A stretch of DNA of 64,000 nt from the IMG/VR virus record IMGVR_UViG_3300044971_004534. One strand, written 5' to 3'. The DNA is from a virus. A program made the translations under genes and the position numbers. The notes under the pieces were generated by a model. The model made no database searches. It was not told the DNA's origin and was given only the letters and a program-made list of their open reading frames with translations. Positions 12,399 through 64,000 of the stretch are shown here, piece after piece (positions within the stretch are counted from its first letter, which is position 1; the number at the start of each line of letters is the position of its first letter).

Positions 12399-13430
12399 TT
12401 ATCGGCACGGATGGAGAAATTTAAGGAAGTCTTCAGATACTTTTTTCCATGTGTGACCGCTTGCGTGCCTGATTGCTCCTTGAGGGGAGCAGTGGATAAT
12501 GGCTAGCACTGTGGCGAGTTTCAGTGCTGGGAGTGAGCCATCAAAGGCGAGGTATCCGTTCTTCCCGTTCTGGACCCAGTCTTTTGGTCCTGTGACGGGG
12601 TATCCCACAACGGGGAGGCCGCATGCATTTGCTTCCAGCATGACGAGTCCAAAGGTGTCGTTTTTTGATGGGAACACGAAGATGTCGGCATTGCGCAGAG
12701 CTCTCCCCACACCTTCTGGTGGGAGTGGGCCACTGAAATGAACTTTGGGGTATTTCTTTTTAAGTGTATTAAGGTACGAGCCACCGCCTACAAAAGTGCA
12801 GTGGAACCCACTGTTGGAGAGTTCGCAGAAGTCGTCTAAGCCTTTCTCTGGGTGGGCTCTGGACACGCATATAAGGCGCTTGGAGTGAATCTTGAGGGCA
12901 TTACGCTTCCACGCAGGCGGGAAGAAGTAGGACTCGTCTACGCCCCTTCCCCAGACGGCAATGCGGTGGGCTGGTGCGAGTAGGTACGACTCGTTGACGA
13001 GCTCGCCCTTTGTGGAGCGTGTGGGTACGAGAATTTTCTTAGAAAGTTTGTGGAACCACTTGAGGTAGCACTGGGTCAAGGACTGGGGGATGCCGTACCA
13101 GTCGTTTAAGATATCGGGAAATTTAGTGTGGTATCCTGTTGTGAAATGGAGGCGGGAGCTCGAGCATGCTCTCCTAGCACTGAAGCCCAGAGGTCCTTCA
13201 GTGAAAATGTGTATATGATCAGGGTTAAAGTCTTTGATTTTTTTCTTTAGGAAGGGGAAGACGAGTTTGACGCCACCGGTGAATGGCAATTGTATTCCCC
13301 AGAAGAGACCTGGATGAAGAAGCAGCACTTCGTGACCCAGCTGGGTAAGTGCTGAAGCTGTATTTTTAACTGTGGTGTAGACGCCATTGATCTGGGGCTC
13401 CCAGGCGTCTGTGACAAGGATAATCCGCAT
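12399..13430 (-). CDS. GT4-family glycosyltransferase (Agt/SQD2-like)
   Basis: MRIILVTDAWEPQINGVYTTV N-terminus and EANACGLPVVGYPVTGPKDWVQNGKNGYL (EX7E region) are typical of GT4. Confidence 0.85.
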   Translation of the reverse strand: MRIILVTDAWEPQINGVYTTVKNTASALTQLGHEVLLLHPGLFWGIQLPFTGGVKLVFPFLKKKIKDFNPDHIHIFTEGPLGFSARRACSSSRLHFTTGYHTKFPDILNDWYGIPQSLTQCYLKWFHKLSKKILVPTRSTKGELVNESYLLAPAHRIAVWGRGVDESYFFPPAWKRNALKIHSKRLICVSRAHPEKGLDDFCELSNSGFHCTFVGGGSYLNTLKKKYPKVHFSGPLPPEGVGRALRNADIFVFPSKNDTFGLVMLEANACGLPVVGYPVTGPKDWVQNGKNGYLAFDGSLPALKLATVLAIIHCSPQGAIRHASGHTWKKVSEDFLKFLHPCR

Positions 13431-13449
13431 GGGTAAGACCCCTTTCTAA

Positions 13450-13477
13450 AATGAATTTCTATGTATAGAAATTCATT
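13450..13477. promoter_or_regulatory. 28-bp palindrome (operator-like), copy 1
   Basis: AATGAATTTCTAT-gt-ATAGAAATTCATT, perfect 13-nt arms, 19 nt upstream of the GT4 start on the minus strand. Confidence 0.6.
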
Positions 13478-13516
13478 CAAAAACGAGGTGTCTCCTTCTT
13501 ATTTCTGCCCCGATTT

Positions 13517-14269
13517 TTATAATTCTGTCCAGAAGACTAGTTTTATTTCGCCTTCTTCTGTTTCAACGAGGGCACTGAACGACTCAACCCAGTCGCCACA
13601 GTTGTAGTAGGAAATCCCGTTGAGGTCGCGCACTTCAGGCTTATGGATGTGTCCGCACACGACACCGTCGTATCCACGACGCTTTGTATATTCAGAGATG
13701 TGATGCTCAAAATGAAAAACGAAGTTTGTTGCCTGCTTAAAGTTCTGCTTAATGAACTTGGAGAACGACCAGTTCTTCTTGCCGAAAAGACGTAAAGCTT
13801 TTCCTACCAGTCGGTTAGATACAACAAGGAAGTCGTATGCCGTTGATCCCAGAGCACTGATCAGAGGGTTGAGGCGGACAGCAGAGTCAAAAACATCGCC
13901 ATGAAGAACAAGGATCTTCTTACCACCGAGGGTTGTGTGGGAAGCTTCGTTCTTGAACTTGATGTCTCCAAGGGTGATTTTTGTCGGTAGCCATAGACGG
14001 ATGAATTCATCGTGGTTTCCTGGAAGATAGGTAACGTGGGCACCCTGCTTTACCTTCTTCAGTATTTTACGGACAGTAGTGGAATTGGCATTAGGCCAGT
14101 GCCATCGTGATTTGAGGCGCCATCCGTCAATGATATCACCTACAAGATACAGGGAGTCGCAGGTGAATGAATCAAGAAAGTCGTTGACCTTATGAGGGTT
14201 GGCGCAGTCAGCTCCGAGGTGCAGGTCAGAGATCCAGACTGCTCTAAAGTGGTTTTTTGATTTTTTCAT
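13517..14269 (-). CDS. LpxH/YbbF/PlcP-like metallophosphoesterase
   Basis: ISDLHLG, VGDIIDGW, PGNHDEF, VLHGDVFD, CGHIHKPE in LpxH-family order; start moved to MKKSKNHFRAVW within ORF-track 13517..14395. Confidence 0.8.
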   Translation of the reverse strand: MKKSKNHFRAVWISDLHLGADCANPHKVNDFLDSFTCDSLYLVGDIIDGWRLKSRWHWPNANSTTVRKILKKVKQGAHVTYLPGNHDEFIRLWLPTKITLGDIKFKNEASHTTLGGKKILVLHGDVFDSAVRLNPLISALGSTAYDFLVVSNRLVGKALRLFGKKNWSFSKFIKQNFKQATNFVFHFEHHISEYTKRRGYDGVVCGHIHKPEVRDLNGISYYNCGDWVESFSALVETEEGEIKLVFWTEL

Positions 14270-14885
14270 TTGAAATAAGCTCTTGAGTGCGAAGGCCAGA
14301 TCGTCGAGCACTGTTCCATAGAAGATCAGCCCAGAGAGCGCCTGCCTGTATATCGGATGGGAAGTGGAGTCCGCCATCGACTCTGCTCTGGCCAACTAAA
14401 TCGGCCATCTTCATAAACGTACTTTCCTTGTGGGGGAAATTTTCAGCAAGGGCATGAGCCATGATTCGGGCGCATGCCATGTGTCCAGAGGGGTACGAGG
14501 GTGAATGGTCTGTATCTGATGTTGCTGGCTCAAAGTCCATCTGCAGGCGCTTTGCTACTTCTTTCGGCCTGGGACGATTGTGATAGATTTTTTCTTTTAG
14601 AACAAGGGTTTCTGTATCTGATGCGATGAGCTCGAGCAGCGGGCGAAATACTGGGCCTGAACCCTGAGGTAATAATCTTAAAAAGTCATCTACGAATGAA
14701 GTATCGAAGACTTGGACCAAGAGCACCCTTTCTGGGTCGTCTTGAGCATCTCGCATCTGCTGAACAACTTGAAGGAGTTCCGTAGCACTGTCTGGCGGAG
14801 ACGGAAGATGAGGTGGATTTTCCTTCAGTATGACTGTGGGTCTGTGGAGCGCGACGTGATGTTCTGGGGAGAGTGGGCGTGGCAT
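14244..14885 (-). CDS. PAP2-family (type 2 phosphatidic acid/acid) phosphatase
   Basis: Kx6RP (HNRPRPKE), PSGH (SYPSGHMA) and SRx5Hx3D (SRVDGGLHFPSDIQAG) motifs; start taken at MPRPLSPEH, alternative ATG 14921 lies inside the palindrome. Confidence 0.8.
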   Translation of the reverse strand: MPRPLSPEHHVALHRPTVILKENPPHLPSPPDSATELLQVVQQMRDAQDDPERVLLVQVFDTSFVDDFLRLLPQGSGPVFRPLLELIASDTETLVLKEKIYHNRPRPKEVAKRLQMDFEPATSDTDHSPSYPSGHMACARIMAHALAENFPHKESTFMKMADLVGQSRVDGGLHFPSDIQAGALWADLLWNSARRSGLRTQELISNEKIKKPL

Positions 14886-14890
14886 AGTAA

Positions 14891-14918
14891 AATGAATTTC
14901 TATACGTAGAAATTCATT
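14891..14918. promoter_or_regulatory. 28-bp palindrome (operator-like), copy 2
   Basis: AATGAATTTCTA-tacg-TAGAAATTCATT, 12-nt arms identical to copy 1, immediately upstream of the PAP2 gene. Confidence 0.6.
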
Positions 14919-14966
14919 CAAAAAGGGGCCATCTCCTCCCCAAAAAATTGTATTTGAGCGGTTTTT

Positions 14967-15368
14967 TCAACGACCCTGAGGTAAGGTCGTGTGACCGGTC
15001 AAGCGCTGGTACGCGTCAACGTAGGCAATGTTTTCGGTACCCACTGCGATGCGCAGCTTCTCGTACCACATGTCAGTTTCTGCTTTTGTCATCTTCCCTT
15101 CGTGGGAGTAGATAGACAGATCCCGAACAATCCCCTGACGAGCAAGCATGGCTTCTTCTGCGTTGTATCGAAGCTTGTCCGAGTTCATGGAGCACCGAAT
15201 GGACTCCACCAGATCGTCATGGTATTTAAACCACGTGACCATGATCCGCTCTTCACGTGATTGACGCGTCGCACCTGCGTTGGTGGCACTGTTTGGGGTG
15301 GTTTGGCATCCAGAAGAAAAAAGCGACAACGCAACAACTAAGCTCGTAAGGCCAATGCTTTTTTTCAT
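14967..15368 (-). CDS. putative lipoprotein
   Basis: ORF track; MKKSIGLTSLVVALSLFSSGC signal peptide with Cys lipobox-like end. Confidence 0.65.
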   Translation of the reverse strand: MKKSIGLTSLVVALSLFSSGCQTTPNSATNAGATRQSREERIMVTWFKYHDDLVESIRCSMNSDKLRYNAEEAMLARQGIVRDLSIYSHEGKMTKAETDMWYEKLRIAVGTENIAYVDAYQRLTGHTTLPQGR

Positions 15369-15650
15369 TTAGGATGCCCCAATCAGTTCTTGAGTGACGA
15401 CCTCGAGCTCACGAGACCGCACTGAAACGGTTGCGTGAAGATTGAGGTACAGATCGCTTGCGGTGCGGAAGTCATCATCTGACACGTGTCCCTCATGAAC
15501 GAGTGTCGCCATGCGGTCCATCGCAATGGCTCCAGCCCTGAGGATTCCCTCAAGTTCGATAGATGATGTCAGTTCGTCCACCGTATAGATGGCGTAACTG
15601 AAGAATCCAAGAAGTTTGTCGCCGTCAATAGCTTCGTCTTCTGAAAGCAC
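15369..15650 (-). CDS. hypothetical protein
   Basis: ORF track; GTG start 8 nt after AAGGAG; abuts the lipoprotein gene. Confidence 0.5.
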   Translation of the reverse strand: MLSEDEAIDGDKLLGFFSYAIYTVDELTSSIELEGILRAGAIAMDRMATLVHEGHVSDDDFRTASDLYLNLHATVSVRSRELEVVTQELIGAS

Positions 15651-15748
15651 GAGTCTGGTCTCCTTTTTTAATTCAGGGGACCAAACATCGCACTGCGGAC
15701 CCCACTTCGCGCACCGCTTGAAGGCGAGCGATACCTCTTAGTAACCAC

Positions 15749-16468
15749 TCATTCTTCAGACTGACCAACCAAATCCAGCTTTTCGACATTCGGTAGCACT
15801 GCGTCTGGCAAAGGGTGGAAGGGGCCTTTTTTCATCCAAACCTTGGTATACGTCTTCAGGTTCTCCCTCCACGCACCGCGCACCGAGTCGCATCTCCATA
15901 GGGGCATGGACCAACGAAGGCGCACTGCGTTCGTCATAAAGCGGCCTGTCATACCATTCAAATTAAAAAATGGGGAAAACGAGGCGATCCAGAACTGGCT
16001 GTGCCACGCCCAGAGAGCAATCTCCTTTTGGAGGGGGAGTGGAGAGAAGCCCCTTTCCAGATAGTCCAAGGCTTTGGCGTCATGGGCGGCAAACTGGCAT
16101 GCCCATTCCTCTACTAACTTCTCCCCTGGTGTGTGCTCGAAGTAGGTTTTTTTATCTACGATGTGGATAACGGGGTGATCTGGTGGCAGCCCCTCATCTG
16201 TAAGGCCCAGCTCTTCAGCTGCGCCCTTTCGAAGCATCTCGTTTACTTTTTGAGTTGTCTCCCATATCGAGACGGCTCCCTCAGCAGTTACGAAGTTCCA
16301 GATCTCATTGCAGCAGTTTGTCATGGCAAGGGCAAGTTGCCGAGGCGCAGGTGATGTCCTGACTCTGAGGAGCTCGTTCTCGCTCACCAGATAGTTGTCG
16401 ATCTCCGCTGAATTTGCTAAGAAAGATGTCCAATCGGCCATCTCCGGGATATGTATGTGACGGGGCAT
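15749..16468 (-). CDS. hypothetical protein
   Basis: ORF track, ATG start; first gene of the minus-strand block. Confidence 0.55.
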   Translation of the reverse strand: MPRHIHIPEMADWTSFLANSAEIDNYLVSENELLRVRTSPAPRQLALAMTNCCNEIWNFVTAEGAVSIWETTQKVNEMLRKGAAEELGLTDEGLPPDHPVIHIVDKKTYFEHTPGEKLVEEWACQFAAHDAKALDYLERGFSPLPLQKEIALWAWHSQFWIASFSPFFNLNGMTGRFMTNAVRLRWSMPLWRCDSVRGAWRENLKTYTKVWMKKGPFHPLPDAVLPNVEKLDLVGQSEE

Positions 16469-17656: not shown

Positions 17657-18601
17657 ATGCCACGAACATCAATCCCAGTCGAAGGAATGCTTGGAAGCCT
17701 GAGTCTCAACCGTGAAGTTGAGTTCATGGTCCAAATGCTTGGTTGGAGTGAATCTCAGATTGTAAGCGCAGTCTTGAGCGCACACCCTGAACTGAAGTCA
17801 GATCAACAGTCCCTTATCAACCATATTCGCGTATGCCGTTCACGGTATCGCACAGATCAGAAAGAGAATGCAGAAGTGAGCGCACTTATTGGCGGTGGAA
17901 CGGTCACCTCACTTGACAAGATTGCAGACAAGAAACTTGTCCGCTTTGCTTGTGGTATCGACCACATTGATATGCTGTGGGGTTTTTCAGAAGATGGGAA
18001 GATCAAGGGATTTCCTCGCGGGCAAATCAGCCTGATTGCGGGAAGCCCCGGCGTGGGCAAGACTCGCGCCATGATCGCTGTCTGCGGCAAGATCAGCGCA
18101 CCGGACTATCGACCTGCACTCAAGGCACTTTATTGGCAAAATGAGTTTGCACTTGAGCAGTTCAAGACTGTATCAAAGTCTCAAATCAAGTCAGGCGCAC
18201 GGTTTAGGTGCGGAGACATCCGCTCTTTGAAGGAGCAGTTGAAGGTCGTTGACAAGGAGAAGCCCGATCTTGTCGTGGTTGACTCTATTCAGATGCTTGA
18301 AGAAGCAAAGAACAAGACAGGCATGGAACGCTGCATCGCGGCTTACAAGGCTGCTGCCGTGGAACACAACATCCATGTCGTTCTTGTCGGTCAGTTGAAC
18401 AAGCGCGAACAAGTCGCAGGAAGTCGTGTGTTGGAACATCTTGTGGACTCTGTATTTACGGCAGTTCGTGACCGTGATACGGGAGGATTCGCCATCCGTT
18501 GTACGAAAAACAGATGGGGAATGTCAGGTATCCAAGGTTGCTTCAAGCACACAGCAACGGGCATTGAGCCTGTCGGAGACATCACCCAATCGGAGGATTG
18601 A
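17657..18601 (+). CDS. RadA/Sms-like RecA-superfamily ATPase (no Zn-finger or Lon domain)
   Basis: Walker A GSPGVGKT, Walker B DLVVVDSIQ, RadA-type KNRWG (KNRFG) motif. Confidence 0.75.
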   Translation: MPRTSIPVEGMLGSLSLNREVEFMVQMLGWSESQIVSAVLSAHPELKSDQQSLINHIRVCRSRYRTDQKENAEVSALIGGGTVTSLDKIADKKLVRFACGIDHIDMLWGFSEDGKIKGFPRGQISLIAGSPGVGKTRAMIAVCGKISAPDYRPALKALYWQNEFALEQFKTVSKSQIKSGARFRCGDIRSLKEQLKVVDKEKPDLVVVDSIQMLEEAKNKTGMERCIAAYKAAAVEHNIHVVLVGQLNKREQVAGSRVLEHLVDSVFTAVRDRDTGGFAIRCTKNRWGMSGIQGCFKHTATGIEPVGDITQSED

Positions 18602-18603
18602 AC

Positions 18604-18882
18604 ATGAATAACGAAACAAGTTTGGTAAACAACAAGCCCACATTCAAGCCGCTTCCCATGTACAAGGTGATTGTTCACAACGATGATGTGAACACCTACA
18701 ATCACGTTATTGGGACTTTCATGGAAATCATCAAAATGGACAAGCAGACCGCCCTCCTCAAGACTGTTGAAGTCGATAAGGAAGGGATGTCCGTGGTGTC
18801 CGTGACGCACAAGGAACACGCTGAACTGTTACAGGATCAGTTGAAGTCCAAGGCTCTCACGGTCACTATTGAGCCGGATTGA
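18604..18882 (+). CDS. clpS: ClpS, ATP-dependent Clp protease adaptor
   Basis: PMYKVIVHNDDVNTYNHVIGTFMEI...AELLQDQL is the ClpS core; ATG 18604 6 nt after GGAGGA (ORF track lists TTG 18598). Confidence 0.85.
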   Translation: MNNETSLVNNKPTFKPLPMYKVIVHNDDVNTYNHVIGTFMEIIKMDKQTALLKTVEVDKEGMSVVSVTHKEHAELLQDQLKSKALTVTIEPD

Positions 18883-18894
18883 TTACAAAAGACT

Positions 18895-18966
18895 GCGGTT
18901 GTCGTATAATGGCTATTACGCGGGTTTTCCAAACCCGTCATGGGAGTTCGATCCTCCCCTACCGCA
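18895..18966 (+). tRNA. tRNA-Gly(UCC)
   Basis: Acceptor GCGGTTG/CTACCGC (one mismatch), anticodon stem CGGGT/ACCCG, loop TTTCCAA, T-arm GGGAGTTCGATCCTCCC. Confidence 0.8.
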
Positions 18967-18970
18967 TTCC

Positions 18971-19004
18971 CTCTTTTTCCCCCTCCGGTGGGGGATTTGA
19001 GGGC
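18971..19004 (+). promoter_or_regulatory. conserved intergenic cassette copy 2
   Basis: core CTCTTTTTCCCCC 18971-18983 directly after tRNA-Gly; TTG +14..16; leader with GGAG to ATG 19063. Confidence 0.55.
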
Positions 19005-19062
19005 GTTGGGACTCCAGCGGGGAGAACCATACAATCGTTTCTAAAGTTTGGAGCAATAACAA

Positions 19063-20085
19063 ATGAATCTCGTTGAGAAGATCAAGCGCAACCGCAAGAC
19101 GGGTGTTCCCACCTTCATCTTTGGTGCGCCCGGTGTTGGCAAGTCGCAGATGGTTCATCAGGCAGCGGACGGGGACACCGTGATTGATGTCCGTCTGTCC
19201 ATGCTTGATCCGGTTGACCTGCGTGGTCTGCCGACCGTCAAGCAGAACGGCGATGGTGAGTCCGTGGTTGAGTGGGCGCGTCCTGAGTTCATCCCGGCTG
19301 AAGGCAAGGGCATCATCTTCTTTGATGAGTTGAACACCGCCCCCGCTGCCGTGCAGAACGCTGCGCTTCAGATCATCCTTGATCGCAAGTGTGGTCCGCA
19401 TAAGTTGGGCGATGGTTGGTACATCGTGGCTGCGGGAAACAAGGCTTCCCACAAGGCTCATGTCAACCCGCTCTCCGCACCGCTCCGCAACCGCTTTGCC
19501 GTGGTTGAGTACGAGCCGTCCGTTGAGGCTTGGTCTGCGTGGGCGATGGGTGCGGGAGTTCACGACCATGTGATCGGCTTCCTCAACTTCCGCCCCGGTC
19601 TGCTCACGACCGATCCGAAGGACGAGTACGCCAACTTTGCCTCCCCCCGTTCGTGGGATCGCGTGTCGAAGTTCCTTCAGGCGGGTCTTGACGAGCAGGA
19701 GGACATGGAGCCTCTTGTCGGCAAGGGTGCTGCTGCGGAGTTCACGGCGTATCGGACGGAGATTCGGGATATGCCCGACATTGACGCTCTGATTGCGAAG
19801 AAGGCTGAGTTCAAGGAGAACCCCAAGAAGATCAGCATTTCCTACGCTGTGGCGATGGCTCTCGCTTCCCGCCTGTCCCGTGGTGACAAGAAGTTCGTGA
19901 CCACGAACGCGGATCGGTGCTGTGAGATCGTGTCTGCCCTGTCCCCGGAGATCGCGTGTCTGTTCTTTGTCCGTACTCTCACCTCCGATCCTCATGTCAA
20001 GACCGCTGTGTGTGAGAGCAAGTCTGCTCACAAGTGGGTGCTGACCCATGAGAAGTTGCTGACGAAGTACGGGATCAAGAAGTAA
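19063..20085 (+). CDS. MoxR/CbbQ-like AAA+ ATPase (AAA_5)
   Basis: Walker A GAPGVGKS, Walker B IIFFDELN, TAPAAVQNAALQIILDRK sensor region. Confidence 0.9.
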   Translation: MNLVEKIKRNRKTGVPTFIFGAPGVGKSQMVHQAADGDTVIDVRLSMLDPVDLRGLPTVKQNGDGESVVEWARPEFIPAEGKGIIFFDELNTAPAAVQNAALQIILDRKCGPHKLGDGWYIVAAGNKASHKAHVNPLSAPLRNRFAVVEYEPSVEAWSAWAMGAGVHDHVIGFLNFRPGLLTTDPKDEYANFASPRSWDRVSKFLQAGLDEQEDMEPLVGKGAAAEFTAYRTEIRDMPDIDALIAKKAEFKENPKKISISYAVAMALASRLSRGDKKFVTTNADRCCEIVSALSPEIACLFFVRTLTSDPHVKTAVCESKSAHKWVLTHEKLLTKYGIKK

Positions 20086-20132
20086 TCCCCCCGCAGGAGT
20101 GGGGGGAGGGCGGCAACGCTCTCCCCCTCTCC

Positions 20133-20166
20133 CTCTTTTTCCCCCTTCCCCGAAGGACTTGGGACA
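20133..20166 (+). promoter_or_regulatory. conserved intergenic cassette copy 3 (leaderless class)
   Basis: core 20133-20145; TTG +14..16; ATG 20166 at +21. Confidence 0.55.
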
Positions 20167-21416
20167 TGGCAAAGAAGAAGAACAACTCCACCGCAACCGC
20201 CGCTCCTGCTGCCGACAACGCTCAGGATGTCGGACTCACGCCTTCTGAACTCAACGAACTCCGTGAGCGCATGAAGGGCATCGTGTTCCGTATGTACCGC
20301 TTCTTTCCCTTTTGGGGACTGCTTGCGGAGAACTGCAAGGTGTCGATCAAGTCCGACAAGGATGTTCCGACCGCCTGTGTTGACCGATACGGCAACATCA
20401 GTTTCGGAGCAAAGTTCTTCAAGGACTTGACCGAAGATCAGGCGTTGTTCGTCCTCGCGCATGAGATCGGTCACGCTGCGTTCAGTCACATTGATCGCCG
20501 TCAGAGCCGTGATCCGCTGCTTTGGAATGTTGCGATTGACTACGCCATCAACCTCCTCCTGTCGGACAACTTCAACGATTCCAAGTATCTGCCGAAGGGT
20601 GTCCTGCTTGACAAGAAGTACGCGGGGATGTCCGCTGAGGAGATTTACGAAGATGTCATCCGCAACGCCAAGACCGTGAAGGTCTACACGCTTTCGGGCG
20701 ATGTTGACTACAGCGACAAGGGCGAGGATGGCGATGGCGATGGCGATGGCATCGTGATCCGTGATCGCCGTGCCGAAAAGAAGGGCAACGAGCAGGGTTG
20801 GGATCAGGCAATCGCCTTGAGCCATGCCCGTGCAAAGATGCAGGGCGATATGCCTGAGTCTCTTGATCGTGCCGTGTCGGAGAAGTTGGGCAGCAAGATT
20901 GATTGGCGCGAAGCACTCAAGCAGTACCTCCGCTTTGGCGTGACTCGCATCCTGCGGGATCACTACACCTTCATGCCCCCGAACCGCCGCTTTGTCCATC
21001 AGGGTCTTTACTTGCCGTCCATGTACGGCAACGATGCCCCGAAGATCGGCTTTGCCGTGGACACCTCCGGTTCGATTGGTGAGTCAGAGATGGCTCAGGC
21101 AATCGCTGAGATTGATGAGATTCGCCGTCAGTTCAACTGCCCTCTTTACCTTGTGGAGTGTGATGCGGAAGTCCATGACGGGCGTTGGATCAGTCCCGAT
21201 CAGTCCTGCCCAACGGCGTTCAAGGGCGGCGGCGGAACCGATTTCCGTCCCGTGTTTGACCACCTCAAGGAGCAGAAAGTCCCCGTGGACATTATGGTGT
21301 ACCTCACCGATGGCTACGGCGAGTTTGGAGATCAGCCCGAAGTCGATGTCCTTTGGGTCACGACCACGAATGTCAAGCCGCCTTATGGCGACCACATTCA
21401 AGTGGGTGTGGGCTAA
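20166..21416 (+). CDS. VWA-domain protein with N-terminal zincin-like domain (MoxR partner, DUF2201-like)
   Basis: HEIGHAAFSH (HExxH) and MIDAS DTSGSIG; immediately downstream of the MoxR ATPase. Confidence 0.85.
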   Translation: MAKKKNNSTATAAPAADNAQDVGLTPSELNELRERMKGIVFRMYRFFPFWGLLAENCKVSIKSDKDVPTACVDRYGNISFGAKFFKDLTEDQALFVLAHEIGHAAFSHIDRRQSRDPLLWNVAIDYAINLLLSDNFNDSKYLPKGVLLDKKYAGMSAEEIYEDVIRNAKTVKVYTLSGDVDYSDKGEDGDGDGDGIVIRDRRAEKKGNEQGWDQAIALSHARAKMQGDMPESLDRAVSEKLGSKIDWREALKQYLRFGVTRILRDHYTFMPPNRRFVHQGLYLPSMYGNDAPKIGFAVDTSGSIGESEMAQAIAEIDEIRRQFNCPLYLVECDAEVHDGRWISPDQSCPTAFKGGGGTDFRPVFDHLKEQKVPVDIMVYLTDGYGEFGDQPEVDVLWVTTTNVKPPYGDHIQVGVG

Positions 21417-23947: not shown

Positions 23948-24302
23948 GGGGCTGAACTGGTTTCGATTGCTGAAGGACTATTCGATACTGCACGACGAGG
24001 CTGATGGGCAACTCGTAAAAAGCCGATCAAACAACAACCGCCAACGAATCGTTGATGGCTGTCGCTGCTTGATGCAGCAAAGTTCTTAGAAGTTGGACAC
24101 TTGCTTCTAAGAACTGTCTGAAGTGTCGATCAGCGTACTGCGAAGTTCCAACGCATAAGGCGCTGAAGTTAATATTATATGATTTGGAACTTTCAAAGGA
24201 CTCATGGTACGAGGACTCCTTTGATCGACGGACTCGTACCTAGCGTGGAGAAGGTGCGATAGGACTTTTGCCAACACAGGGGTTCGACTCCCCTCGGCTC
24301 CA
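23948..24302 (+). ncRNA. ssrA: tmRNA (SsrA), tag ADQTTTANESLMAVAA
   Basis: 5' GGGGCTGAACTGGTTTCGA; 3' T-arm GGGGTTCGACTCCCC plus acceptor CGGCTCC-A pairing with the 5' end incl. G3:U; tag ORF GCC 24022 to TGA 24072 after an A-rich tract; no encoded CCA. Confidence 0.8.
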
Positions 24303-24311
24303 TTCAGCAAG

Positions 24312-53640: not shown

Positions 53641-54096
53641 ATGCAATATAAATTATCAAAGTCAGAGTGGGAATCTATAGGCGTCAATGCTGGGTGGATG
53701 AAAATTGCTGGACCTGGCGGAAGATTTCAGGCTTCCATGAGTGCAGCAGAGCAAAAGTTGTGGGCAAGCCTAAATCAGCAACAAAAAAATAATTATGCAA
53801 CATTGGATGCTGCCAATAGAGCAAGGGTTGCAGCACTGCCATTGCAGCAAGCACAACAATACCTGAACAGCATAATGCCACCAGCTGGAGGTAAAGTCCC
53901 AACAGCTTCATTTGATAATGAAATAAAGACGGCTCTTAAATTAAATGACAAAACTGATGAAAAAACACCAGAGCAGTATAAGGAAGAGTTTATAGAAAGA
54001 ATGAAGTCCATCGGGATGACAGATGAAGAAATCGAGCGTGCACTAAAATCTGGATATTTAGAAAGAATCATGAAAGGCAGAAAGAATAAAGAATGA
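53641..54096 (+). CDS. QYKLSK-domain protein (module 3, gene A)
   Basis: MQYKLSKSEWESIGVNAGWMKIAG; ATG 53641 6 nt after GGAG (ORF track lists 53629). Confidence 0.65.
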   Translation: MQYKLSKSEWESIGVNAGWMKIAGPGGRFQASMSAAEQKLWASLNQQQKNNYATLDAANRARVAALPLQQAQQYLNSIMPPAGGKVPTASFDNEIKTALKLNDKTDEKTPEQYKEEFIERMKSIGMTDEEIERALKSGYLERIMKGRKNKE

Positions 54097-54860
54097 ACTG
54101 GTATAAGCTGGCTCAAAATAGGTCTTTTTCTTGGGCCAATGTAGAGGGTATTTTATACACACCAGAGGCCATGAGAGACTTGAAAGATTTTAAGAAGTCT
54201 CAGGAAGGAAGAAGTGCTAAGGAAATTAGCATGCTTATTAAAGACGTTATTGATAGAAGACAAATTAATTTACGGAATGTAGAATCCAGGTCTGCTGCAA
54301 ATCCTTACATTCCAAACGGACCAAAAGAAAAAATAAAGATTCACGTATTTGAGCCAAGAGGTGTTGGACTCGCTGAAGGTCCCGGAAAGGCTTACAGAAT
54401 AGGAGCACAACTATGTTCTTTAGGAGGAGAAACTTCAGAATCATCAGACAAATACATTCGAGAGCAAGAATTTGAAAGAACTGGACGTAAATTTTTAATT
54501 ATCAAGAGAGTATTTGAAAATCATGATGAAGATTATTTGCCATGGATTAGTCTATATAATTCTTCTCACGTAGATGATTGTCCAAAATACACATTTCAAA
54601 TTCAAAGAAAAGAAAACCAAGAAAAAATAGTAGATCTCAATCCTCAAAACCCTTTTGACTGGTTAGTAAATTCTGTAAAGATGATACGCGATAGAAATAT
54701 TGAAGGCATCAGCATTCATAAAAGAATGCTTGAAGGAAAATCAGAAGAAGAAATTTTTAGTATTTTAGAATTTATGACAAAAAATCAGGCTAGATTCCCA
54801 TCTAATATATTAAAAGATATAGGCAGGTGGATCGAGGAATACGTGGACAGAACAGGGTAA
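54093..54860 (+). CDS. NWYK N-terminus protein (module 3, gene B)
   Basis: MNWYKLAQNRSF start; ATGA overlap. Confidence 0.6.
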   Translation: MNWYKLAQNRSFSWANVEGILYTPEAMRDLKDFKKSQEGRSAKEISMLIKDVIDRRQINLRNVESRSAANPYIPNGPKEKIKIHVFEPRGVGLAEGPGKAYRIGAQLCSLGGETSESSDKYIREQEFERTGRKFLIIKRVFENHDEDYLPWISLYNSSHVDDCPKYTFQIQRKENQEKIVDLNPQNPFDWLVNSVKMIRDRNIEGISIHKRMLEGKSEEEIFSILEFMTKNQARFPSNILKDIGRWIEEYVDRTG

Positions 54861-54880
54861 TACATCTTTGGAAAACACAC

Positions 54881-55336
54881 ATGAACTATTCTGAATTTTA
54901 TGGAACTGGAGATGACGCAAAAAGGCTTAAGCTTATTCTTATGTCTTACGATGAAGAGTATGCACGTCAAATGAAAACATATCCAGAGCAAAAAAATGCT
55001 TTAACAACTCAGTTTAAGTCATATTCAAATCTAGTTATTAATCAACTTAATAGCTACACAGAATCAGGAGAAAGCGCTCCAAGTGGAGTCAGAATGCTTG
55101 GAATTGTTTTCAAAAAGAATTTAAATGTTGCCGCTAAGTACGAGCTTATTAATCCTGTAGAATTTTCTACATATACTGACGCAGCAAAATCTTTCTATGT
55201 CAGTCAAAACTTAGACGTAAGTGAATACTTTGATAATTCAGAAAATTCAACAGAACTGTTTAATAGAATTAATACTAGTCAGGATAATCCTACAGGTATA
55301 ACATACTTAGATTCATCAGGTTCATTAGTGAGGTAA
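54881..55336 (+). CDS. hypothetical protein
   Basis: ATG 54881 in frame of ORF-track 54827..55336. Confidence 0.55.
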   Translation: MNYSEFYGTGDDAKRLKLILMSYDEEYARQMKTYPEQKNALTTQFKSYSNLVINQLNSYTESGESAPSGVRMLGIVFKKNLNVAAKYELINPVEFSTYTDAAKSFYVSQNLDVSEYFDNSENSTELFNRINTSQDNPTGITYLDSSGSLVR

Positions 55337-55341
55337 TAAAG

Positions 55342-55620
55342 ATGTCTTTTAGAGAAAAAATCGGATTTGAAAAACAAGGCGACCAATGGGTTCGCACCCA
55401 GGCAGCGCTAAACGCTGCTGCTCCTAAAGCTATAAGTAGAATTGAAAAACTTATATATTCTGCTGATACTGCTGCAGGTATTGGAGACATGAACGGAGCT
55501 GCGTTTCATGCGAATTGGGCCAGAATTGTCATACAGAGTGCACTAGACAATGGTTTTATTACTCAAAATCAGCACTCAACATACATGTCTCAAATTAACG
55601 CTATTTCTCCGCCAGAATAA
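55342..55620 (+). CDS. hypothetical protein
   Basis: ORF track; SD GTGAGG. Confidence 0.55.
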   Translation: MSFREKIGFEKQGDQWVRTQAALNAAAPKAISRIEKLIYSADTAAGIGDMNGAAFHANWARIVIQSALDNGFITQNQHSTYMSQINAISPPE

Positions 55621-55639
55621 TAGAGATATTAGATACAAC

Positions 55640-55663
55640 AAAGGGGAGCTTTTGGCTCCCCTT
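55640..55663. terminator. bidirectional rho-independent terminator
   Basis: AAAGGGGAGC-tttt-GCTCCCCTTT between convergent genes. Confidence 0.8.
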
Positions 55664-55689
55664 TGTTGTATTATAAAATGTAAAAATAA

Positions 55690-56328
55690 TTATTTACGCT
55701 TACGTTGACTAAAGCTGCAAAGACCTGCAATACCAATAAGAGATACTGCTCCTGGTGCAGGAATTGCGTTTACTCCAAAGCCACAGTAGTCAATAAAGTT
55801 TCCCTGAGTAGATCCGCCTGTGGCGCTAACTGCCTGAAATGCGAATCTTGTCAGATTTCCTATACTAACTATAGATCCTGAATGAAATTGCCAAGCAGTT
55901 TCATCTGCAGTAAAGTTGCCCTGATACAGAACAGTGTCATCTCCGTTGCCATACAGCTGATCTGCGCCAAGATCAATTATTGAAAGCTGCATGACATCAA
56001 CTCCGTATCTGCCTCTGTGAGCAAAATGCCAATTAATTGTATTGAAATCTCCTAAGCCATTGACGTGCTGATACAAAGTAGAATCGTAGTTTGCATTGAG
56101 TTCAGCGAATGAACTTCCCTCATATGCAGGCACTCCAAGAAATCCATCTGACCAAATCTCCAAATTGTTGTCTGGTGCTGTGGTTGCCCAGTTCAAAGTT
56201 GGGTCAGAACCAGAAAAGAAACCATAACCCCAGGTCTGAAAATCTTCAAAACCACCGTTTACAAGATCTGCCATACAACTTGTAGAAATAACTAAAGTAG
56301 ACAAAAATGCACAAGCGTATTTAACCAT
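55690..56328 (-). CDS. secreted PEP-CTERM protein with DUF642-like domain
   Basis: Signal peptide, then DLVNGGFE; C-terminus IPAPGAVSLIGIAGLCSFSQRKRK (PEP-CTERM variant: PxPG, helix, basic cluster); SD AAGGAGGG. Confidence 0.75.
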   Translation of the reverse strand: MVKYACAFLSTLVISTSCMADLVNGGFEDFQTWGYGFFSGSDPTLNWATTAPDNNLEIWSDGFLGVPAYEGSSFAELNANYDSTLYQHVNGLGDFNTINWHFAHRGRYGVDVMQLSIIDLGADQLYGNGDDTVLYQGNFTADETAWQFHSGSIVSIGNLTRFAFQAVSATGGSTQGNFIDYCGFGVNAIPAPGAVSLIGIAGLCSFSQRKRK

Positions 56329-56369
56329 TTAATAAACCCTCCTTATTAAAATTGGTAATGGTGTAAAAA

Positions 56370-57164
56370 TTATATTCTTTTACGATTATGAAAAAATTGA
56401 CTAAAAGCAACTACAGTAAAAGCTCCAGGTGATGGAACGGACGGTGGCACATAGTATCCACCAGTGTCTATACCATAGTACTCTCCAAATCCATAGTTAG
56501 TTCCAAGAGCAAGTGTAGTGCTATAGACATCAAATGGCAGCAAACTAGGAGTAAAAAAGGCTGCGTATGGATCTGCAAATCCTGTTTGAGCTGCCAAAGA
56601 GGTAACCGGGGCTAAATTAATATCTGTCGCCAAAGCTGCCTGCACAATTTGCTTTGTCAATTTATTTTGCTCATTAGTAACAACAAGTGGAGCTTCAACT
56701 GGCTTATCTCCACCAATTTTATTTTCTTTGGGAAATCTAGCAAGTTCATCTGAGATCTGATAGCCACGAGTCTGTTCTTTGTTGTCAATTTTGAATGGTT
56801 TCTGCCAGTGCCCTTGATAAGGTTGGCCAAACAAAGCGGAATTTGACTGCTTATTACTATTATTGTCTTTTTGTTCTTGATTTTTTGGAGCGTCTGCTTT
56901 CCCAATATCAGAAGCTGCAGTTATGGCAGAATTCATGCCATTAATCGCTGACATAAGAGACTGTACTCCACGTTCACCAAGCAATGTGATTGCAGAAGTA
57001 CATACGATGGTCATAACGTAAACTTTTTTCTCTAAGCTTTTAACCTTAGATTTTGCTTCTTCACACATTCTGGCACATGAAGAGCATCCCCCAGAAATGC
57101 TCTCAACATGCGAGTGTGAAACTGGCGTAGGCGCAGGCTGCTGAATGTCTTTTTTAATCCCCAT
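56370..57164 (-). CDS. PEP-CTERM-like membrane/secreted protein
   Basis: C-terminus VPSPGAFTVVAFSQFFHNRKRI; internal helix VYVMTIVCTSAITLL. Confidence 0.55.
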   Translation of the reverse strand: MGIKKDIQQPAPTPVSHSHVESISGGCSSCARMCEEAKSKVKSLEKKVYVMTIVCTSAITLLGERGVQSLMSAINGMNSAITAASDIGKADAPKNQEQKDNNSNKQSNSALFGQPYQGHWQKPFKIDNKEQTRGYQISDELARFPKENKIGGDKPVEAPLVVTNEQNKLTKQIVQAALATDINLAPVTSLAAQTGFADPYAAFFTPSLLPFDVYSTTLALGTNYGFGEYYGIDTGGYYVPPSVPSPGAFTVVAFSQFFHNRKRI

Positions 57165-57304
57165 TTGTACCCCCCGATACTTTGAAGTTGCGAATATACT
57201 TAATTTAAAAATACGATATATTATTTCATTTTCCTTTTGTAATAAGCACTCATCTTATTTGATAATAGTCAGAAAGGTAATGGATTTATTTTTAGTAATA
57301 TTTT

Positions 57305-63086: not shown

Positions 63087-63130
63087 TTTCTACGACAAAT
63101 AAGTAAAAGCTCTATCATAGGAGAACTTAC

Positions 63131-63274
63131 ATGGGAAAAAATGTTAGAAATAATTACAGCGACAATGGCATGACTAGAAGAAACTGGAAGGCAAAAATGA
63201 TGAAGAAAAAGCATGACCGAATAAGAAATCTTGAAGGCTGCAATGCAAGAAAGCAAGCCGAAAACCCTCAGTAA
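63131..63274 (+). CDS. small basic protein (47 aa)
   Basis: Hand-translated MGKNVRNNYSDNGMTRRNWKAKMMKKKHDRIRNLEGCNARKQAENPQ; AGGAG upstream; terminator overlaps the stop. Confidence 0.4.
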   Translation: MGKNVRNNYSDNGMTRRNWKAKMMKKKHDRIRNLEGCNARKQAENPQ

Positions 63275-63286
63275 TGAGGGTTTTTT
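63261..63286 (+). terminator. rho-independent terminator
   Basis: AAAACCCTCA-gtaa-TGAGGGTTTT followed by TT. Confidence 0.8.
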
Positions 63287-63309
63287 AATTAAAGCTTGTA
63301 ATATATTAC

Positions 63310-63762: not shown

Positions 63763-64000
63763 CAGATACGGTCAACCTAGATACATAACAAGAGTTTCTA
63801 AAAAAGAATACCTCATACGTGGGGTGTCTAGTTTTATTAGAATGGGATACTCTGATGACTTAAAAGCTGAGTATGAATTTGTGGACTTTGACGGCGGACC
63901 TTTCCTTCAGGTTGGCGACATACTGCTTATGAATGTGCAGTATCAAGAAAATAAAAAAATAGTATCGCTTAAGCCAAGTGATAGCCCTCAAGAAGGCGAT
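63716..64000 (+). CDS. hypothetical protein, 3'-truncated at window edge
   Basis: Frame open from ATG 63716 to the window end; MRRKKLPINAETVIHSRYGQPRYITRVSKKEYLIRGV...; 47-nt overlap with previous gene. Confidence 0.45.
   Translation, partial: MRRKKLPINAETVIHSRYGQPRYITRVSKKEYLIRGVSSFIRMGYSDDLKAEYEFVDFDGGPFLQVGDILLMNVQYQENKKIVSLKPSDSPQEGD

What the first reader, a model, noticed from the sequence alone, without database searches (positions are those of the whole stretch)
12399..14921. PAP2 + PlcP/LpxH-like phosphoesterase + GT4: candidate phospholipid-to-glycolipid remodelling cassette
Seen: three consecutive minus-strand genes, opposite to almost everything else in the window. The first is a PAP2 phosphatase with KxxxxxxRP, PSGH and SRxxxxxHxxxD motifs. 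The second is a metallophosphoesterase with the full LpxH/YbbF motif series (DLHLG, GDIIDGW, GNHD, HGD, GHIH). The third is a GT4 glycosyltransferase. Established: the PlcP (LpxH-family phospholipase C) plus Agt (GT4) pair, described in Sinorhizobium meliloti and in marine heterotrophs such as SAR11, converts phospholipids to diacylglycerol and then to glycolipids under phosphate limitation. PAP2 enzymes make diacylglycerol from phosphatidate. Inference: this is an auxiliary metabolic module that frees phosphate from host membrane lipids, or remodels lipid A or the envelope, during infection. I am not aware of this three-gene combination being described on a phage.
Basis: partly seen in the sequence, partly recalled or inferred. 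Interest (0 to 1): 0.75.

Follow-up and report, generated by a model that had tools for sequence, protein, structure and literature searches.

The report
Phage-borne phospholipid-to-glycolipid remodelling cassette
A very large phage (over 280 kb) carries bacterial-type genes that should cut the phosphate head off membrane phospholipids and put a sugar in its place, next to a soluble phosphatase, so the phage may mine its host's membrane for phosphate during infection.

Summary
The three genes are real and intact, and they evolve under purifying selection. The metallophosphoesterase (13517-14269, -) is a PlcP-type phospholipase C, not LpxH. It scores 197 bits against an ortholog of the genetically validated MED193 PlcP and 35 bits against E. 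coli LpxH. It fails both NCBIfam LpxH models. It has the PlcP motifs GNHD/GHIH rather than LpxH's GNRD/GHTH.

The GT4 (12399-13430, -) belongs to the Agt diacylglycerol-glycosyltransferase clade. It is 35-40% identical over its full length to the GT4 genes directly downstream of plcP in bacteria. It keeps every residue shown by mutagenesis to be essential in SAR11 GTcp.

The PAP2 (14244-14885, -) is not a membrane phosphatidate phosphatase. It has no signal peptide and no transmembrane helix, and its fold is that of a class A acid phosphatase.

The cassette lies in a conserved six-gene minus-strand block on a jumbo phage. A conserved 30-nt palindrome flanks the PAP2-PlcP pair.

PlcP alone (Pelagibacter phage Mosig, Synechococcus phage S-SRM01) and PlcP-GT4 pairs occur on other phages, where they are annotated as LpxH. 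The triple occurs only in this phage clade. I found no paper describing phage-encoded PlcP/Agt.

A phosphate-scavenging role is inferred, not shown.

The parts
12399..13430 (-). Agt-like GT4 glycosyltransferase (343 aa), predicted diacylglycerol glycosyltransferase
   Evidence: Pfam Glycos_transf_1 and Glyco_transf_4. It is 40% and 35% identical over its full length to the GT4 directly downstream of plcP in Motiliproteus and Acidisphaera. The residues essential in SAR11 GTcp (PMC8231724) are present as G16, G79/G82, H101, R162, R191, K196, D258, T259, F260, G261, E266 and W328, and are invariant or nearly so across the family alignment. dN/dS is 0.14.
13449..13478 (.). Copy 2 of a 30-nt palindrome (GAATGAATTTCTA-loop-TAGAAATTCATTT), directly upstream of the GT4 start
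   Evidence: Exactly two copies occur in 64 kb, with none expected by chance. The arms are identical in relatives that are about 77% identical overall, while the loop varies. As RNA it folds into a 13-bp hairpin.
13517..14269 (-). PlcP-type metallophospholipase C (250 aa)
   Evidence: Metallophos domain. 40% identity and 197 bits against an ortholog 98% identical to MED193_17359 over its available N-terminal 135 residues. Only 35 bits against E. coli LpxH. NCBIfam LpxH models score 32 and 40 bits against cut-offs of 190 and 134, whereas E. coli LpxH scores 389 and 364. Motifs are GNHD and GHIH as in PlcP; LpxH has GNRD and GHTH. dN/dS is 0.05.
14244..14885 (-). Soluble PAP2-fold phosphatase without a signal peptide, class A acid phosphatase-like (213 aa); overlaps the PlcP start by 26 nt
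   Evidence: Pfam PAP2. The three catalytic motifs are invariant. No transmembrane or signal segment (maximum KD19 1.27). AlphaFold2 model pLDDT 88.7. The best structural matches are the P. aeruginosa, E. blattae, PhoN and PhoC acid phosphatases (TM-score 0.62-0.72); PgpB, LPP1 and LpxE reach 0.39-0.51. dN/dS is 0.05.
14890..14919 (.). Copy 1 of the 30-nt palindrome, directly upstream of the PAP2 start
14967..15368 (-). Small protein with a lipoprotein-like signal (MKKSIGLTSLVVALSLFSSGC); same strand block; function unknown
   Evidence: Translation. Conserved in relatives at about 60-62% identity. No Pfam, NCBIfam or PHROG match. Some relatives' gene calls give a 91-aa version.
15369..15650 (-). 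93-aa protein of unknown function; same strand block
   Evidence: Conserved in relatives at about 70% identity. No family match.
15749..16468 (-). First gene of the block: 239-aa protein with a divergent Fic-like fold
   Evidence: Only 7 relatives among 1.8 billion representative proteins. AlphaFold2 pLDDT 76.6. The top 47 PDB matches are all Fic-domain proteins, but they are weak (E >= 1e-3, TM-score 0.45-0.55). The Fic-like stretch reads SPFFNLNGMTGR, with Ser where the catalytic His would be.

Best explanation
A jumbo phage carries a bacterial plcP-agt lipid-renovation operon, captured as a unit, and has joined a soluble phosphatase to it.

Shown by homology: PlcP is a Mn/metal-dependent phospholipase C that cleaves membrane glycerophospholipids (PE, PG, PC) into diacylglycerol and a phospho-headgroup. 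The Agt-type GT4 then transfers a hexose or glucuronate from a UDP-sugar onto the diacylglycerol, giving a phosphorus-free glycolipid (MGDG or GADG type). The bilayer is therefore rebuilt rather than destroyed.

Inferred: the class A acid phosphatase-like PAP2 has no signal peptide, so it should stay in the cytoplasm. It is translationally coupled to PlcP. It may hydrolyse the released phospho-headgroups, or other soluble phosphomonoesters, to free orthophosphate.

Inferred net effect: membrane phosphorus becomes available for phage DNA synthesis, which matters for a genome over 280 kb, while the host cell stays intact until lysis.

The PAP2-PlcP pair and the GT4 each sit behind an identical conserved palindrome. 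This suggests, but does not show, that they are regulated together by a phage-specific signal rather than by host PhoB.
For: PlcP identity. The window protein scores 197 bits at 40% identity against an ortholog of the genetically validated MED193 PlcP, and 35 bits against E. coli LpxH. Controls with the NCBIfam LpxH models separate true LpxH (389/364 bits) from validated-type PlcP (46/50) and the window protein (32/40). In a neighbour-joining tree the window protein lies inside the PlcP family, with LpxH on a long branch, and it has GNHD/GHIH rather than GNRD/GHTH.

Operon capture. Bacterial homologs at 46-50% identity in Motiliproteus and Acidisphaera have a 343/340-aa GT4 directly downstream. 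That GT4 is 40%/35% identical to the window's 343-aa GT4. This matches the 'type 2' plcP-agt arrangement of Sebastian et al. (PMC4796936).

Agt identity. All GTcp residues whose mutation abolished activity are conserved, including the clade-specific Asp in FPSxxDTFG and the DAG-contacting His, Arg and Trp (PMC8231724; alignment).

PAP2. It is soluble, has intact catalytic motifs and has the class A acid phosphatase fold. It overlaps PlcP by 26 nt in the window and in relatives.

Maintenance. The same six-gene block occurs in two phage lineages and in many samples. dN/dS is 0.05-0.14.

Phage origin. The region is flanked by endonuclease VII, a DnaB-like helicase, MoxR/vWA, DNA polymerase fragments, 7 tRNAs and a tmRNA. 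The phage assembles into contigs of up to 280 kb.

Link to phosphate stress in other phages. The PlcP of Pelagibacter phage Mosig lies next to pstS, and viral contig L019 has PlcP-GT4 near phoH.
Against: No enzyme activity, lipid data or expression data exist for these genes.

I could not obtain the sequence of an experimentally validated Agt (Atu2297, PA3218, PB7211_960). Agt membership therefore rests on published residue positions and on synteny, not on a direct alignment.

The donor-binding motif is altered: SRAHPEKG in place of GRVAxEKN.

No Pho box lies near the cassette; matches in the window are at chance level and none falls within 12-17 kb. No pstS or phoH is in the 64-kb window.

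The host and environment are unknown, so phosphate limitation is assumed.

The link between PAP2 and PlcP is weak beyond co-transcription. At least 579 other viral-contig stretches encode related PAP2 domains. The 80 I inspected have no signal peptide and no transmembrane helix, and none has PlcP or Agt within 5 kb. Some are fused to HD or cytidylyltransferase-like domains, which points to nucleotide rather than lipid chemistry.
Confidence: 0.6

Rival explanations
1. The same biochemistry (phospholipid to DAG to glycolipid) serves envelope remodelling for host takeover rather than phosphate supply. The changed membrane or outer-membrane composition could block superinfecting phages, alter receptors or porins, or resist cationic peptides.
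For: The cassette shares a strand block with a Fic-like protein and a lipoprotein-like protein, both typical of host-takeover or exclusion 'moron' regions. There is no Pho box and no pstS or phoH nearby. Published work shows that PlcP-Agt remodelling changes the membrane proteome, polymyxin resistance and possibly phage receptors in P. aeruginosa (PMC8528852, PMC9804370).
Against: In other phages PlcP sits with phosphate-stress genes (pstS in Mosig, phoH in L019). A phosphatase coupled to PlcP fits phosphate release better than exclusion.
Confidence: 0.2
2. The PAP2 is functionally unrelated to the lipid genes. It is a member of a widespread viral family of cytoplasmic PAP2 phosphomonoesterases that act on nucleotides or other soluble metabolites, and it merely shares a transcription unit with PlcP. 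Only PlcP-Agt forms a pathway.
For: More than 579 related PAP2 stretches lie on viral contigs. None of the 80 examined has PlcP or Agt within 5 kb, and all 80 lack signal peptides and transmembrane helices. Some are fused to HD or cytidylyltransferase-like domains. Class A acid phosphatases are broad-specificity enzymes (established knowledge).
Against: The 26-nt overlap with PlcP and the flanking palindromes are conserved across diverged relatives. The PlcP reaction produces exactly the kind of phosphomonoester that such enzymes hydrolyse.
Confidence: 0.3
3. The phosphoesterase is an LpxH, and the cassette modifies lipid A or LPS: LpxH plus an LpxE-like lipid A phosphatase plus an LPS-core GT4.
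For: Databases name the homologs 'UDP-2,3-diacylglucosamine diphosphatase'. LpxH is the only PDB sequence match to the phosphoesterase (E 5e-4). LpxE is a weak PDB match to the PAP2.
Against: The protein fails both curated LpxH models by a wide margin, while E. coli LpxH passes them. It scores 35 bits against LpxH and 197 bits against PlcP. It has GNHD, not GNRD. The PAP2 has no membrane helices, unlike LpxE. The GT4 matches plcP-linked Agt-type enzymes and reaches none of the NCBIfam model cut-offs.
Confidence: 0.03
4. PlcP is a lysis or membrane-disruption factor that degrades host phospholipids late in infection.
For: A phospholipase C could weaken the inner membrane. A lipoprotein-like gene lies nearby.
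Against: The conserved, intact Agt directly downstream re-uses the DAG to make bilayer-forming glycolipid. This argues for remodelling, not destruction. No holin, endolysin or spanin signatures were detected in the block.
Confidence: 0.05

Closest known systems
PlcP-Agt lipid renovation pathway of bacteria. PlcP: S. meliloti SMc00171, Phaeobacter sp. MED193 MED193_17359, SAR11 HTCC7211 PB7211_983, P. aeruginosa PA3219. Agt: A. tumefaciens Atu2297, PB7211_960/GTcp, PA3218/PA0842.
   Same: The two enzyme families are the same. The gene order is the same, with the GT4 directly downstream ('type 2' arrangement). Protein lengths are similar. Catalytic and substrate-binding residues are conserved. 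Identity to bacterial members is 35-50%, which is within the 46-47% range seen between validated PlcPs.
   Different: The cassette is encoded by a jumbo phage. No Pho box was detected. It is preceded by a phage-specific palindrome. A class A acid phosphatase-like PAP2 without a signal peptide is coupled to PlcP; the two bacterial loci examined (L002, L003) have no PAP2 next to plcP. The donor-binding motif varies (SRAHPEKG, FPSKNDTFG), and the phage clade's GT4 has two short insertions.
PlcP homologs already present in deposited phage genomes: Pelagibacter phage Mosig EXVC030M (Mosig_00120) and Synechococcus phage S-SRM01 (QPX48289.1)
   Same: They belong to the same PlcP family, at 38% and 31% identity with GNHD/GHIH motifs. 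They sit among auxiliary metabolic genes, next to pstS in Mosig and near psbA in S-SRM01.
   Different: They are single genes with no Agt and no PAP2. They are annotated as UDP-2,3-diacylglucosamine hydrolase/diphosphatase. I found no paper recognising them as PlcP.
LpxH (UDP-2,3-diacylglucosamine diphosphatase, lipid A pathway)
   Same: Both are calcineurin-like metallophosphoesterases with an inserted lipid-binding cap region, and they are distant homologs. This is why databases give the LpxH name.
   Different: About 26% identity over the N-terminal half only. The score is 32-40 bits against model cut-offs of 134-190. The motif is GNHD rather than LpxH's GNRD. The genomic context is different.
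Class A non-specific acid phosphatases (P. aeruginosa acid phosphatase 7F17, E. blattae 1D2T, Salmonella PhoN, PhoC)
   Same: The soluble all-helical PAP2 fold is the same (TM-score up to 0.72), as are the KX6RP / PSGH / SRX5HX3D catalytic motifs.
   Different: The bacterial enzymes are secreted and have signal peptides. The phage protein has none, so it should act in the cytoplasm. Sequence identity is only 19-26%.
Phosphate-stress auxiliary metabolic genes of marine phages (pstS, phoH, phoA)
   Same: The proposed logic is the same: the phage boosts phosphorus supply for its own replication.
   Different: Those genes act on uptake or on dissolved organic phosphorus. This cassette would draw on the host's own membrane. 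This comparison rests on established knowledge plus inference; nothing here tests it.

Membership tests
PlcP (LpxH-related metallophospholipase C) | Calcineurin-like metallophosphoesterase with the full metal-binding motif set (DxHxG, GDxxD, GNHD, HGD, GHxH) | tested here: met
   Pfam Metallophos. DLHLG, GDIIDGW, GNHD, HGD and GHIH are present and shared with all PlcP-family members examined.
PlcP (LpxH-related metallophospholipase C) | Operational criterion used in the literature: BLASTP E < 1e-40 against MED193_17359 (PMC4796936) | tested here: met
   197 bits, pairwise E 2e-67 and 40% identity over 241 aa against L007. L007 differs from MED193_17359 at 2 of the 135 N-terminal residues I could retrieve. 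Caveat: the full MED193 gene was cut off at the end of the locus, so a near-identical ortholog was used.
PlcP (LpxH-related metallophospholipase C) | Distinct from bona fide LpxH | tested here: met
   NCBIfam TIGR01854 and PRK05340 score 32 and 40 bits against cut-offs of 190 and 134. The E. coli LpxH control scores 389 and 364. MED193-type PlcP scores 46 and 50.
PlcP (LpxH-related metallophospholipase C) | Genomic linkage to a gene for synthesis of a phosphorus-free lipid (agt, btaAB, sqd) | tested here: met
   An Agt-type GT4 lies 86 nt downstream, as in Motiliproteus and Acidisphaera.
PlcP (LpxH-related metallophospholipase C) | Phospholipase C activity on PC/PE/PG that yields diacylglycerol | not testable with these tools
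   Needs an enzyme assay or lipidomics.
PlcP-Agt system as a PhoB-regulated phosphate-stress response | Pho box upstream of the operon | tested here: not met
   A scan with the CTGTCATNNNNCTGTCAT consensus found 10 matches at up to 3 mismatches, against 6.4 expected by chance, and none between 12 and 17 kb. The host's Pho box may differ from this consensus.
Agt clade of GT4 (diacylglycerol glucosyl/glucuronosyl transferase) | GT-B GT4 architecture | tested here: met
   Glyco_transf_4 at the N-terminus plus Glycos_transf_1 at the C-terminus.
Agt clade of GT4 (diacylglycerol glucosyl/glucuronosyl transferase) | Catalytic dyad His104-Asp256 (Asp in place of the usual GT4 Glu) and the DAG-contacting Arg163 and Trp320 of GTcp | tested here: met
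   H101, D258, R162 and W328 are at the corresponding positions. They are invariant or nearly invariant across 14 family members. The mapping uses the published numbering and motif context, not an alignment to GTcp itself.
Agt clade of GT4 (diacylglycerol glucosyl/glucuronosyl transferase) | UDP-sugar motifs GRVAxEKN and FPSxTDTFG | tested here: inconclusive
   The window has SRAHPEKG and FPSKNDTFG. The residues validated by mutagenesis (Arg, Lys, Asp, Thr, Phe, Gly) are kept, but four other motif positions differ.
Agt clade of GT4 (diacylglycerol glucosyl/glucuronosyl transferase) | 46-58% identity to GTcp/Agt and clustering with them in a GT4 phylogeny | not tested
   No validated Agt sequence could be retrieved with the tools. 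The window GT4 is 35-46% identical to plcP-linked bacterial GT4s. Its PDB matches to other GT4 enzymes are weak (best E 6e-12) and cover mainly the C-terminal domain.
Agt clade of GT4 (diacylglycerol glucosyl/glucuronosyl transferase) | Synthesis of MGDG/GADG from DAG and UDP-sugar | not testable with these tools
   Needs heterologous expression and LC-MS.
LpxH | Score above the curated equivalog cut-off; GNRD motif | tested here: not met
Membrane PAP2 lipid phosphate phosphatases (PgpB, LpxE, phosphatidate phosphatase) | Integral membrane protein with about six transmembrane helices around the PAP2 core | tested here: not met
   The maximum 19-residue Kyte-Doolittle hydropathy is 1.27, so no transmembrane segment is predicted. 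Structural similarity to PgpB, LPP1 and LpxE is low (TM-score 0.39-0.51).
Class A non-specific acid phosphatase | Soluble PAP2 fold with KX6RP, PSGH and SRX5HX3D | tested here: met
Class A non-specific acid phosphatase | Secreted or periplasmic, with an N-terminal signal peptide | tested here: not met
   No hydrophobic N-terminus. Bacterial relatives P0127, P0128 and P0130 have one; the phage clade does not.
Fic domain (for the first gene of the block, 15749-16468) | Fic fold with the HPFx[D/E]GNGRxxR motif | tested here: inconclusive
   The top 47 structural matches are all Fic proteins, but the scores are weak. The motif region reads SPFFNLNGMTGR, without the catalytic His. There is no Pfam match.

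The most novel reading that the evidence does not exclude
A jumbo phage carries a self-contained 'membrane phosphorus mining' pathway. PlcP strips phospho-headgroups from host phospholipids. A cytoplasmic acid phosphatase-type PAP2 converts those headgroups to orthophosphate for phage DNA synthesis. Agt caps the resulting diacylglycerol with sugar so that the cell stays intact. This would be a new class of auxiliary metabolic function, virus-driven lipid renovation. Related single-gene versions are widespread in marine phages, where they are mis-annotated as LpxH.
Probability: 0.35. Interest if true: 0.75.

Novelty: new variant of a known kind. Interest (0 to 1): 0.62.

Why it matters
Known phage phosphate-stress genes (pstS, phoH, phoA) act on uptake. 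A phage-encoded PlcP-Agt pathway would instead make the host membrane a phosphorus reserve that viruses tap.

It also has a practical consequence for annotation. Viral 'lpxH' genes, including those counted as LPS-biosynthesis auxiliary genes in surface waters of the phosphate-poor Eastern Mediterranean (PMC10653327), may in fact be PlcP. I did not examine those sequences.

The hypothesis can be tested directly by heterologous expression and lipidomics.

Tried and rejected
(1) A megablast of the cassette against GenBank phages found nothing. A tblastn of the PAP2 against the same collection also found nothing.

(2) I tried to retrieve MED193 plcP by searching genome contigs with its published RT-PCR primer. 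The locus ended 290 nt after the primer, so only 135 residues were recovered. I used a syntenic ortholog (L007) that is 98% identical over that stretch.

(3) I could not get a validated Agt sequence. Papers give accession numbers only. The published primers are for codon-optimised genes. The homolog search returned no named reference organisms.

(4) A Pho box scan gave only chance-level matches.

(5) The sigma-70 promoter and intrinsic terminator scan of the block found nothing above shuffled controls.

(6) A search for pstS or phoH in the window found none.

(7) Sample accession numbers were not found in any paper, so the environment and host remain unknown.

(8) I considered that the GC drop after about 54 kb marks an assembly chimera and rejected it. 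The same junction is assembled in independent samples on contigs of up to 280 kb.

(9) I considered LpxE-like lipid A phosphatase and membrane phosphatidate phosphatase roles for the PAP2 and rejected both on hydropathy and fold.

(10) The three upstream genes gave no Pfam, NCBIfam or PHROG match. Only the first yielded a weak Fic-like fold.

Full report
**Observation**

The window has three back-to-back minus-strand ORFs at 12399-13430, 13517-14395 and 14244-14921. Pfam assigns them GT4 domains (Glycos_transf_1, E 9e-22; Glyco_transf_4, E 5e-17), Metallophos (E 7e-11) and PAP2 (E 1e-11).

Two starts need correcting. Close homologs of the phosphoesterase are 247-251 aa, and gene callers give 250 aa, so the gene is 13517-14269. 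The PAP2 most likely begins at the ATG at 14885. The 'MNEFL.IEIHF' N-termini on two of the longest ORFs are the translation of a 30-nt palindrome that occurs exactly twice in the window, with none expected by chance.

The minus-strand block is six genes long (12399-16468). The same six genes, in the same order, are found in a related phage lineage (about 77% nucleotide identity) and in many independent assemblies. Against that relative, dN/dS is 0.05 (PlcP), 0.05 (PAP2) and 0.14 (GT4), so all three genes are maintained by selection. dS is near saturation, so these values are approximate.

**Is it a phage?**

- The region is flanked on the opposite strand by endonuclease VII, a DnaB-like helicase, a MoxR ATPase with a vWA partner, ClpS, HNH endonucleases and DNA polymerase fragments.
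- The window holds 7 tRNAs and a tmRNA.
- Relatives are classed as viral in IMG/VR.
- Proteins identical to the window's lie on contigs of up to 280,008 bp, and a 71%-identical GT4 lies on a 210,909-bp contig.

This is a jumbo phage. It has no close relative among deposited phage genomes.

**PlcP or LpxH?**

The protein database holds thousands of homologs at 42-51% identity, most of them named 'UDP-2,3-diacylglucosamine diphosphatase'. To obtain a validated reference I searched genome contigs with the published MED193 plcP RT-PCR primer (PMC4796936 supplement; search). The MED193 locus was cut off after 135 residues. A syntenic Roseobacter metagenome-assembled genome has the same upstream histidine kinase and the same downstream btaA/btaB-type genes. 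It encodes a protein that differs from MED193_17359 at 2 of those 135 residues.

| Test | Window protein | MED193-type PlcP | E. coli LpxH |
|---|---|---|---|
| BLASTP against MED193-type PlcP | 40% identity, 197 bits | - | 43 bits |
| BLASTP against E. coli LpxH | 34.7 bits | 43 bits | - |
| NCBIfam TIGR01854 (cut-off 190) | 32 | 46 | 389 |
| NCBIfam PRK05340 (cut-off 134) | 40 | 50 | 364 |
| Motifs | GNHD, GHIH | GNHD, GHIH | GNRD, GHTH |

All 35 PlcP-family sequences I aligned have GNHD, and all but one (GHVH in L023) have GHIH. The neighbour-joining tree puts the window protein in its own phage clade inside the PlcP family, with LpxH on a long branch.

**GT4**

In Motiliproteus and Acidisphaera the PlcP homolog is followed directly by a GT4 of 343 and 340 aa. 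The window GT4, also 343 aa, is 40% and 35% identical to them over its full length. This is the commonest plcP neighbourhood described by Sebastian et al., plcP followed by agt.

I could not retrieve a validated Agt sequence. Instead I used the residue-level definition from the biochemical study of SAR11 GTcp (PMC8231724):

- catalytic His104 and Asp256, where the Asp replaces the usual GT4 Glu and cannot be exchanged for it;
- DAG-contacting Arg163 and Trp320;
- donor-binding Gly16, Gly82, Gly85, Arg190, Lys195, Thr257, Phe258, Gly259 and Glu264.

The window has H101, D258, R162, W328, G16, G79, G82, R191, K196, T259, F260, G261 and E266 in the same motif contexts. These positions are invariant or nearly so across 14 family members. 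The motif GRVAxEKN reads SRAHPEKG here, so the motif test is only partly met. No curated NCBIfam model is reached. Several of the best sub-threshold matches are glycolipid synthases.

**PAP2**

The three catalytic motifs are intact and invariant. The protein has no hydrophobic N-terminus and no transmembrane helix. An AlphaFold2 model (pLDDT 88.7) matches soluble class A acid phosphatases over its whole length (P. aeruginosa 7F17, E. blattae, PhoN, PhoC; TM-score 0.62-0.72). It matches PgpB, LPP1 and LpxE much less well (0.39-0.51).

Bacterial relatives carry signal peptides and the phage clade does not.

Its stop overlaps the PlcP start by 26 nt in all relatives.

A profile search of IMG/VR found at least 579 viral stretches with related PAP2 domains. 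All 80 that I examined lack signal peptides and transmembrane segments, and none has PlcP or Agt within 5 kb. Some are domains of 470-1670-aa proteins with weak, sub-threshold matches to HD or cytidylyltransferase-like domains. Physical coupling supports a functional link between PAP2 and PlcP in this phage, but the wider distribution of the family does not.

**Precedents and literature**

tblastn against deposited phages found PlcP homologs in Pelagibacter phage Mosig (38%, divergent from pstS) and in Synechococcus phage S-SRM01 (31%, near psbA). Both are annotated as LpxH-type enzymes. IMG/VR holds 24 PlcP loci. Four of them (L019 with phoH, L021 and L029 with ribonucleotide reductase, L022) also have the Agt-type GT4 adjacent. 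I did not verify that those four are true phages.

The PAP2-PlcP-Agt triple is confined to the window's clade. Full-text searches found no paper describing phage-encoded PlcP or Agt. One virome study lists 'lpxH' as a surface-water viral LPS gene in the phosphate-poor Eastern Mediterranean. The literature library does not include most subscription journals, so absence there is not proof of novelty.

**Mechanism**

- Shown by homology: PlcP converts phospholipid to diacylglycerol plus a phospho-headgroup, and Agt converts diacylglycerol plus UDP-sugar to a glycolipid.
- Inferred: the cytoplasmic PAP2 releases orthophosphate from the headgroups. The net purpose is to supply phosphorus to a phage with a very large genome while keeping the membrane intact.
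- Against the phosphate-stress reading: there is no Pho box, there is no pstS or phoH in the window, and the environment is unknown.
- The block also encodes a weakly Fic-like protein and a lipoprotein-like protein. An envelope-remodelling or host-takeover role is therefore a serious rival.
- The identical palindrome ahead of PAP2-PlcP and ahead of the GT4 keeps its arms unchanged while the loop and flanks diverge. It can form a 13-bp hairpin. This suggests common phage-specific control, but its mode of action is unknown.

**Verdict**

The PAP2 role needs revising, and the novelty claim holds only for the full combination. This is a new phage-borne variant of a known bacterial system. It is of moderate to high interest because it would add membrane lipid renovation to the auxiliary functions known in phages, and because it suggests a recurrent mis-annotation of viral 'LpxH' genes.

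Noticed in passing
window 13449-13478 and 14890-14919: A 30-nt near-perfect palindrome (GAATGAATTTCTA-loop-TAGAAATTCATTT) occurs exactly twice. One copy lies just upstream of the PAP2 start and the other just upstream of the GT4 start, so the two copies bracket the PAP2-PlcP pair. The arms are identical in relatives that are about 77% identical overall, while the loop length varies from 4 to 5 nt. Each copy is preceded by a G+C-rich hairpin and a T-run. It could be an operator, a phage promoter or an RNA processing hairpin; this is unresolved.
   Followed up: partly
window 15749-16468 (-): The first gene of the minus-strand block has only 7 relatives among 1.8 billion representative proteins. 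Its model matches only Fic-domain proteins, and weakly. The Fic-like motif reads SPFFNLNGMTGR, with Ser in place of the catalytic His. It may be a divergent or inactive Fic-type host-modifying protein.
   Followed up: partly
window 14967-15368 (-): A 133-aa ORF has a lipoprotein-like signal (MKKSIGLTSLVVALSLFSSGC) and sits directly upstream of the PAP2. Some relatives' gene calls start later and give a 91-aa product without the signal.
   Followed up: no
window 23948-24305, plus tRNAs at 11527, 18894, 23432, 24651, 28114, 28201 and 30783: The phage encodes a tmRNA (tag ANESLMAVAA; Rfam 85.9 bits) and seven scattered tRNAs (Glu, Gly, Arg, Met, Leu x2, Lys).
   Followed up: no
window about 54000-64000: G+C content falls from about 50-60% to 32-37%. 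This region holds two very large ORFs (899 and 1042 aa) with no PHROG match. The junction is assembled identically in independent samples on contigs of up to 280 kb. It is therefore real compositional heterogeneity within the phage genome and not a chimera.
   Followed up: partly
L040-L119 (IMG/VR contigs): At least 579 viral-contig stretches encode related PAP2 domains. In the 80 examined, none has a signal peptide, a transmembrane helix or a nearby PlcP/Agt. Most are proteins of about 215-250 aa. Some are embedded in proteins of 470-1670 aa with HD, DUF5824 or cytidylyltransferase-like regions. This looks like an uncharacterised viral family of cytoplasmic PAP2 phosphatases.
   Followed up: partly
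L009 (Pelagibacter phage Mosig, Mosig_00120) and L039 (Synechococcus phage S-SRM01, QPX48289.1): Both cultured phages carry PlcP-family genes annotated as UDP-2,3-diacylglucosamine hydrolase/diphosphatase. In Mosig the gene is divergent from pstS. These are likely mis-annotated lipid-remodelling phospholipases.
   Followed up: partly
P0139 (50%-identical GT4 homolog, alignment A4): This member of the phage-like GT4 series has Tyr in place of the catalytic His and Asn in place of the catalytic Asp. It may be an inactivated or repurposed copy.
   Followed up: no
window 17657-21416 (+): Next to the block lie a DnaB-like/RecA-like ATPase, a ClpS-like adaptor (called in relatives), a MoxR-type AAA ATPase and a DUF2201/vWA partner. 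This is an unusual set of proteostasis-type genes for a phage.
   Followed up: no
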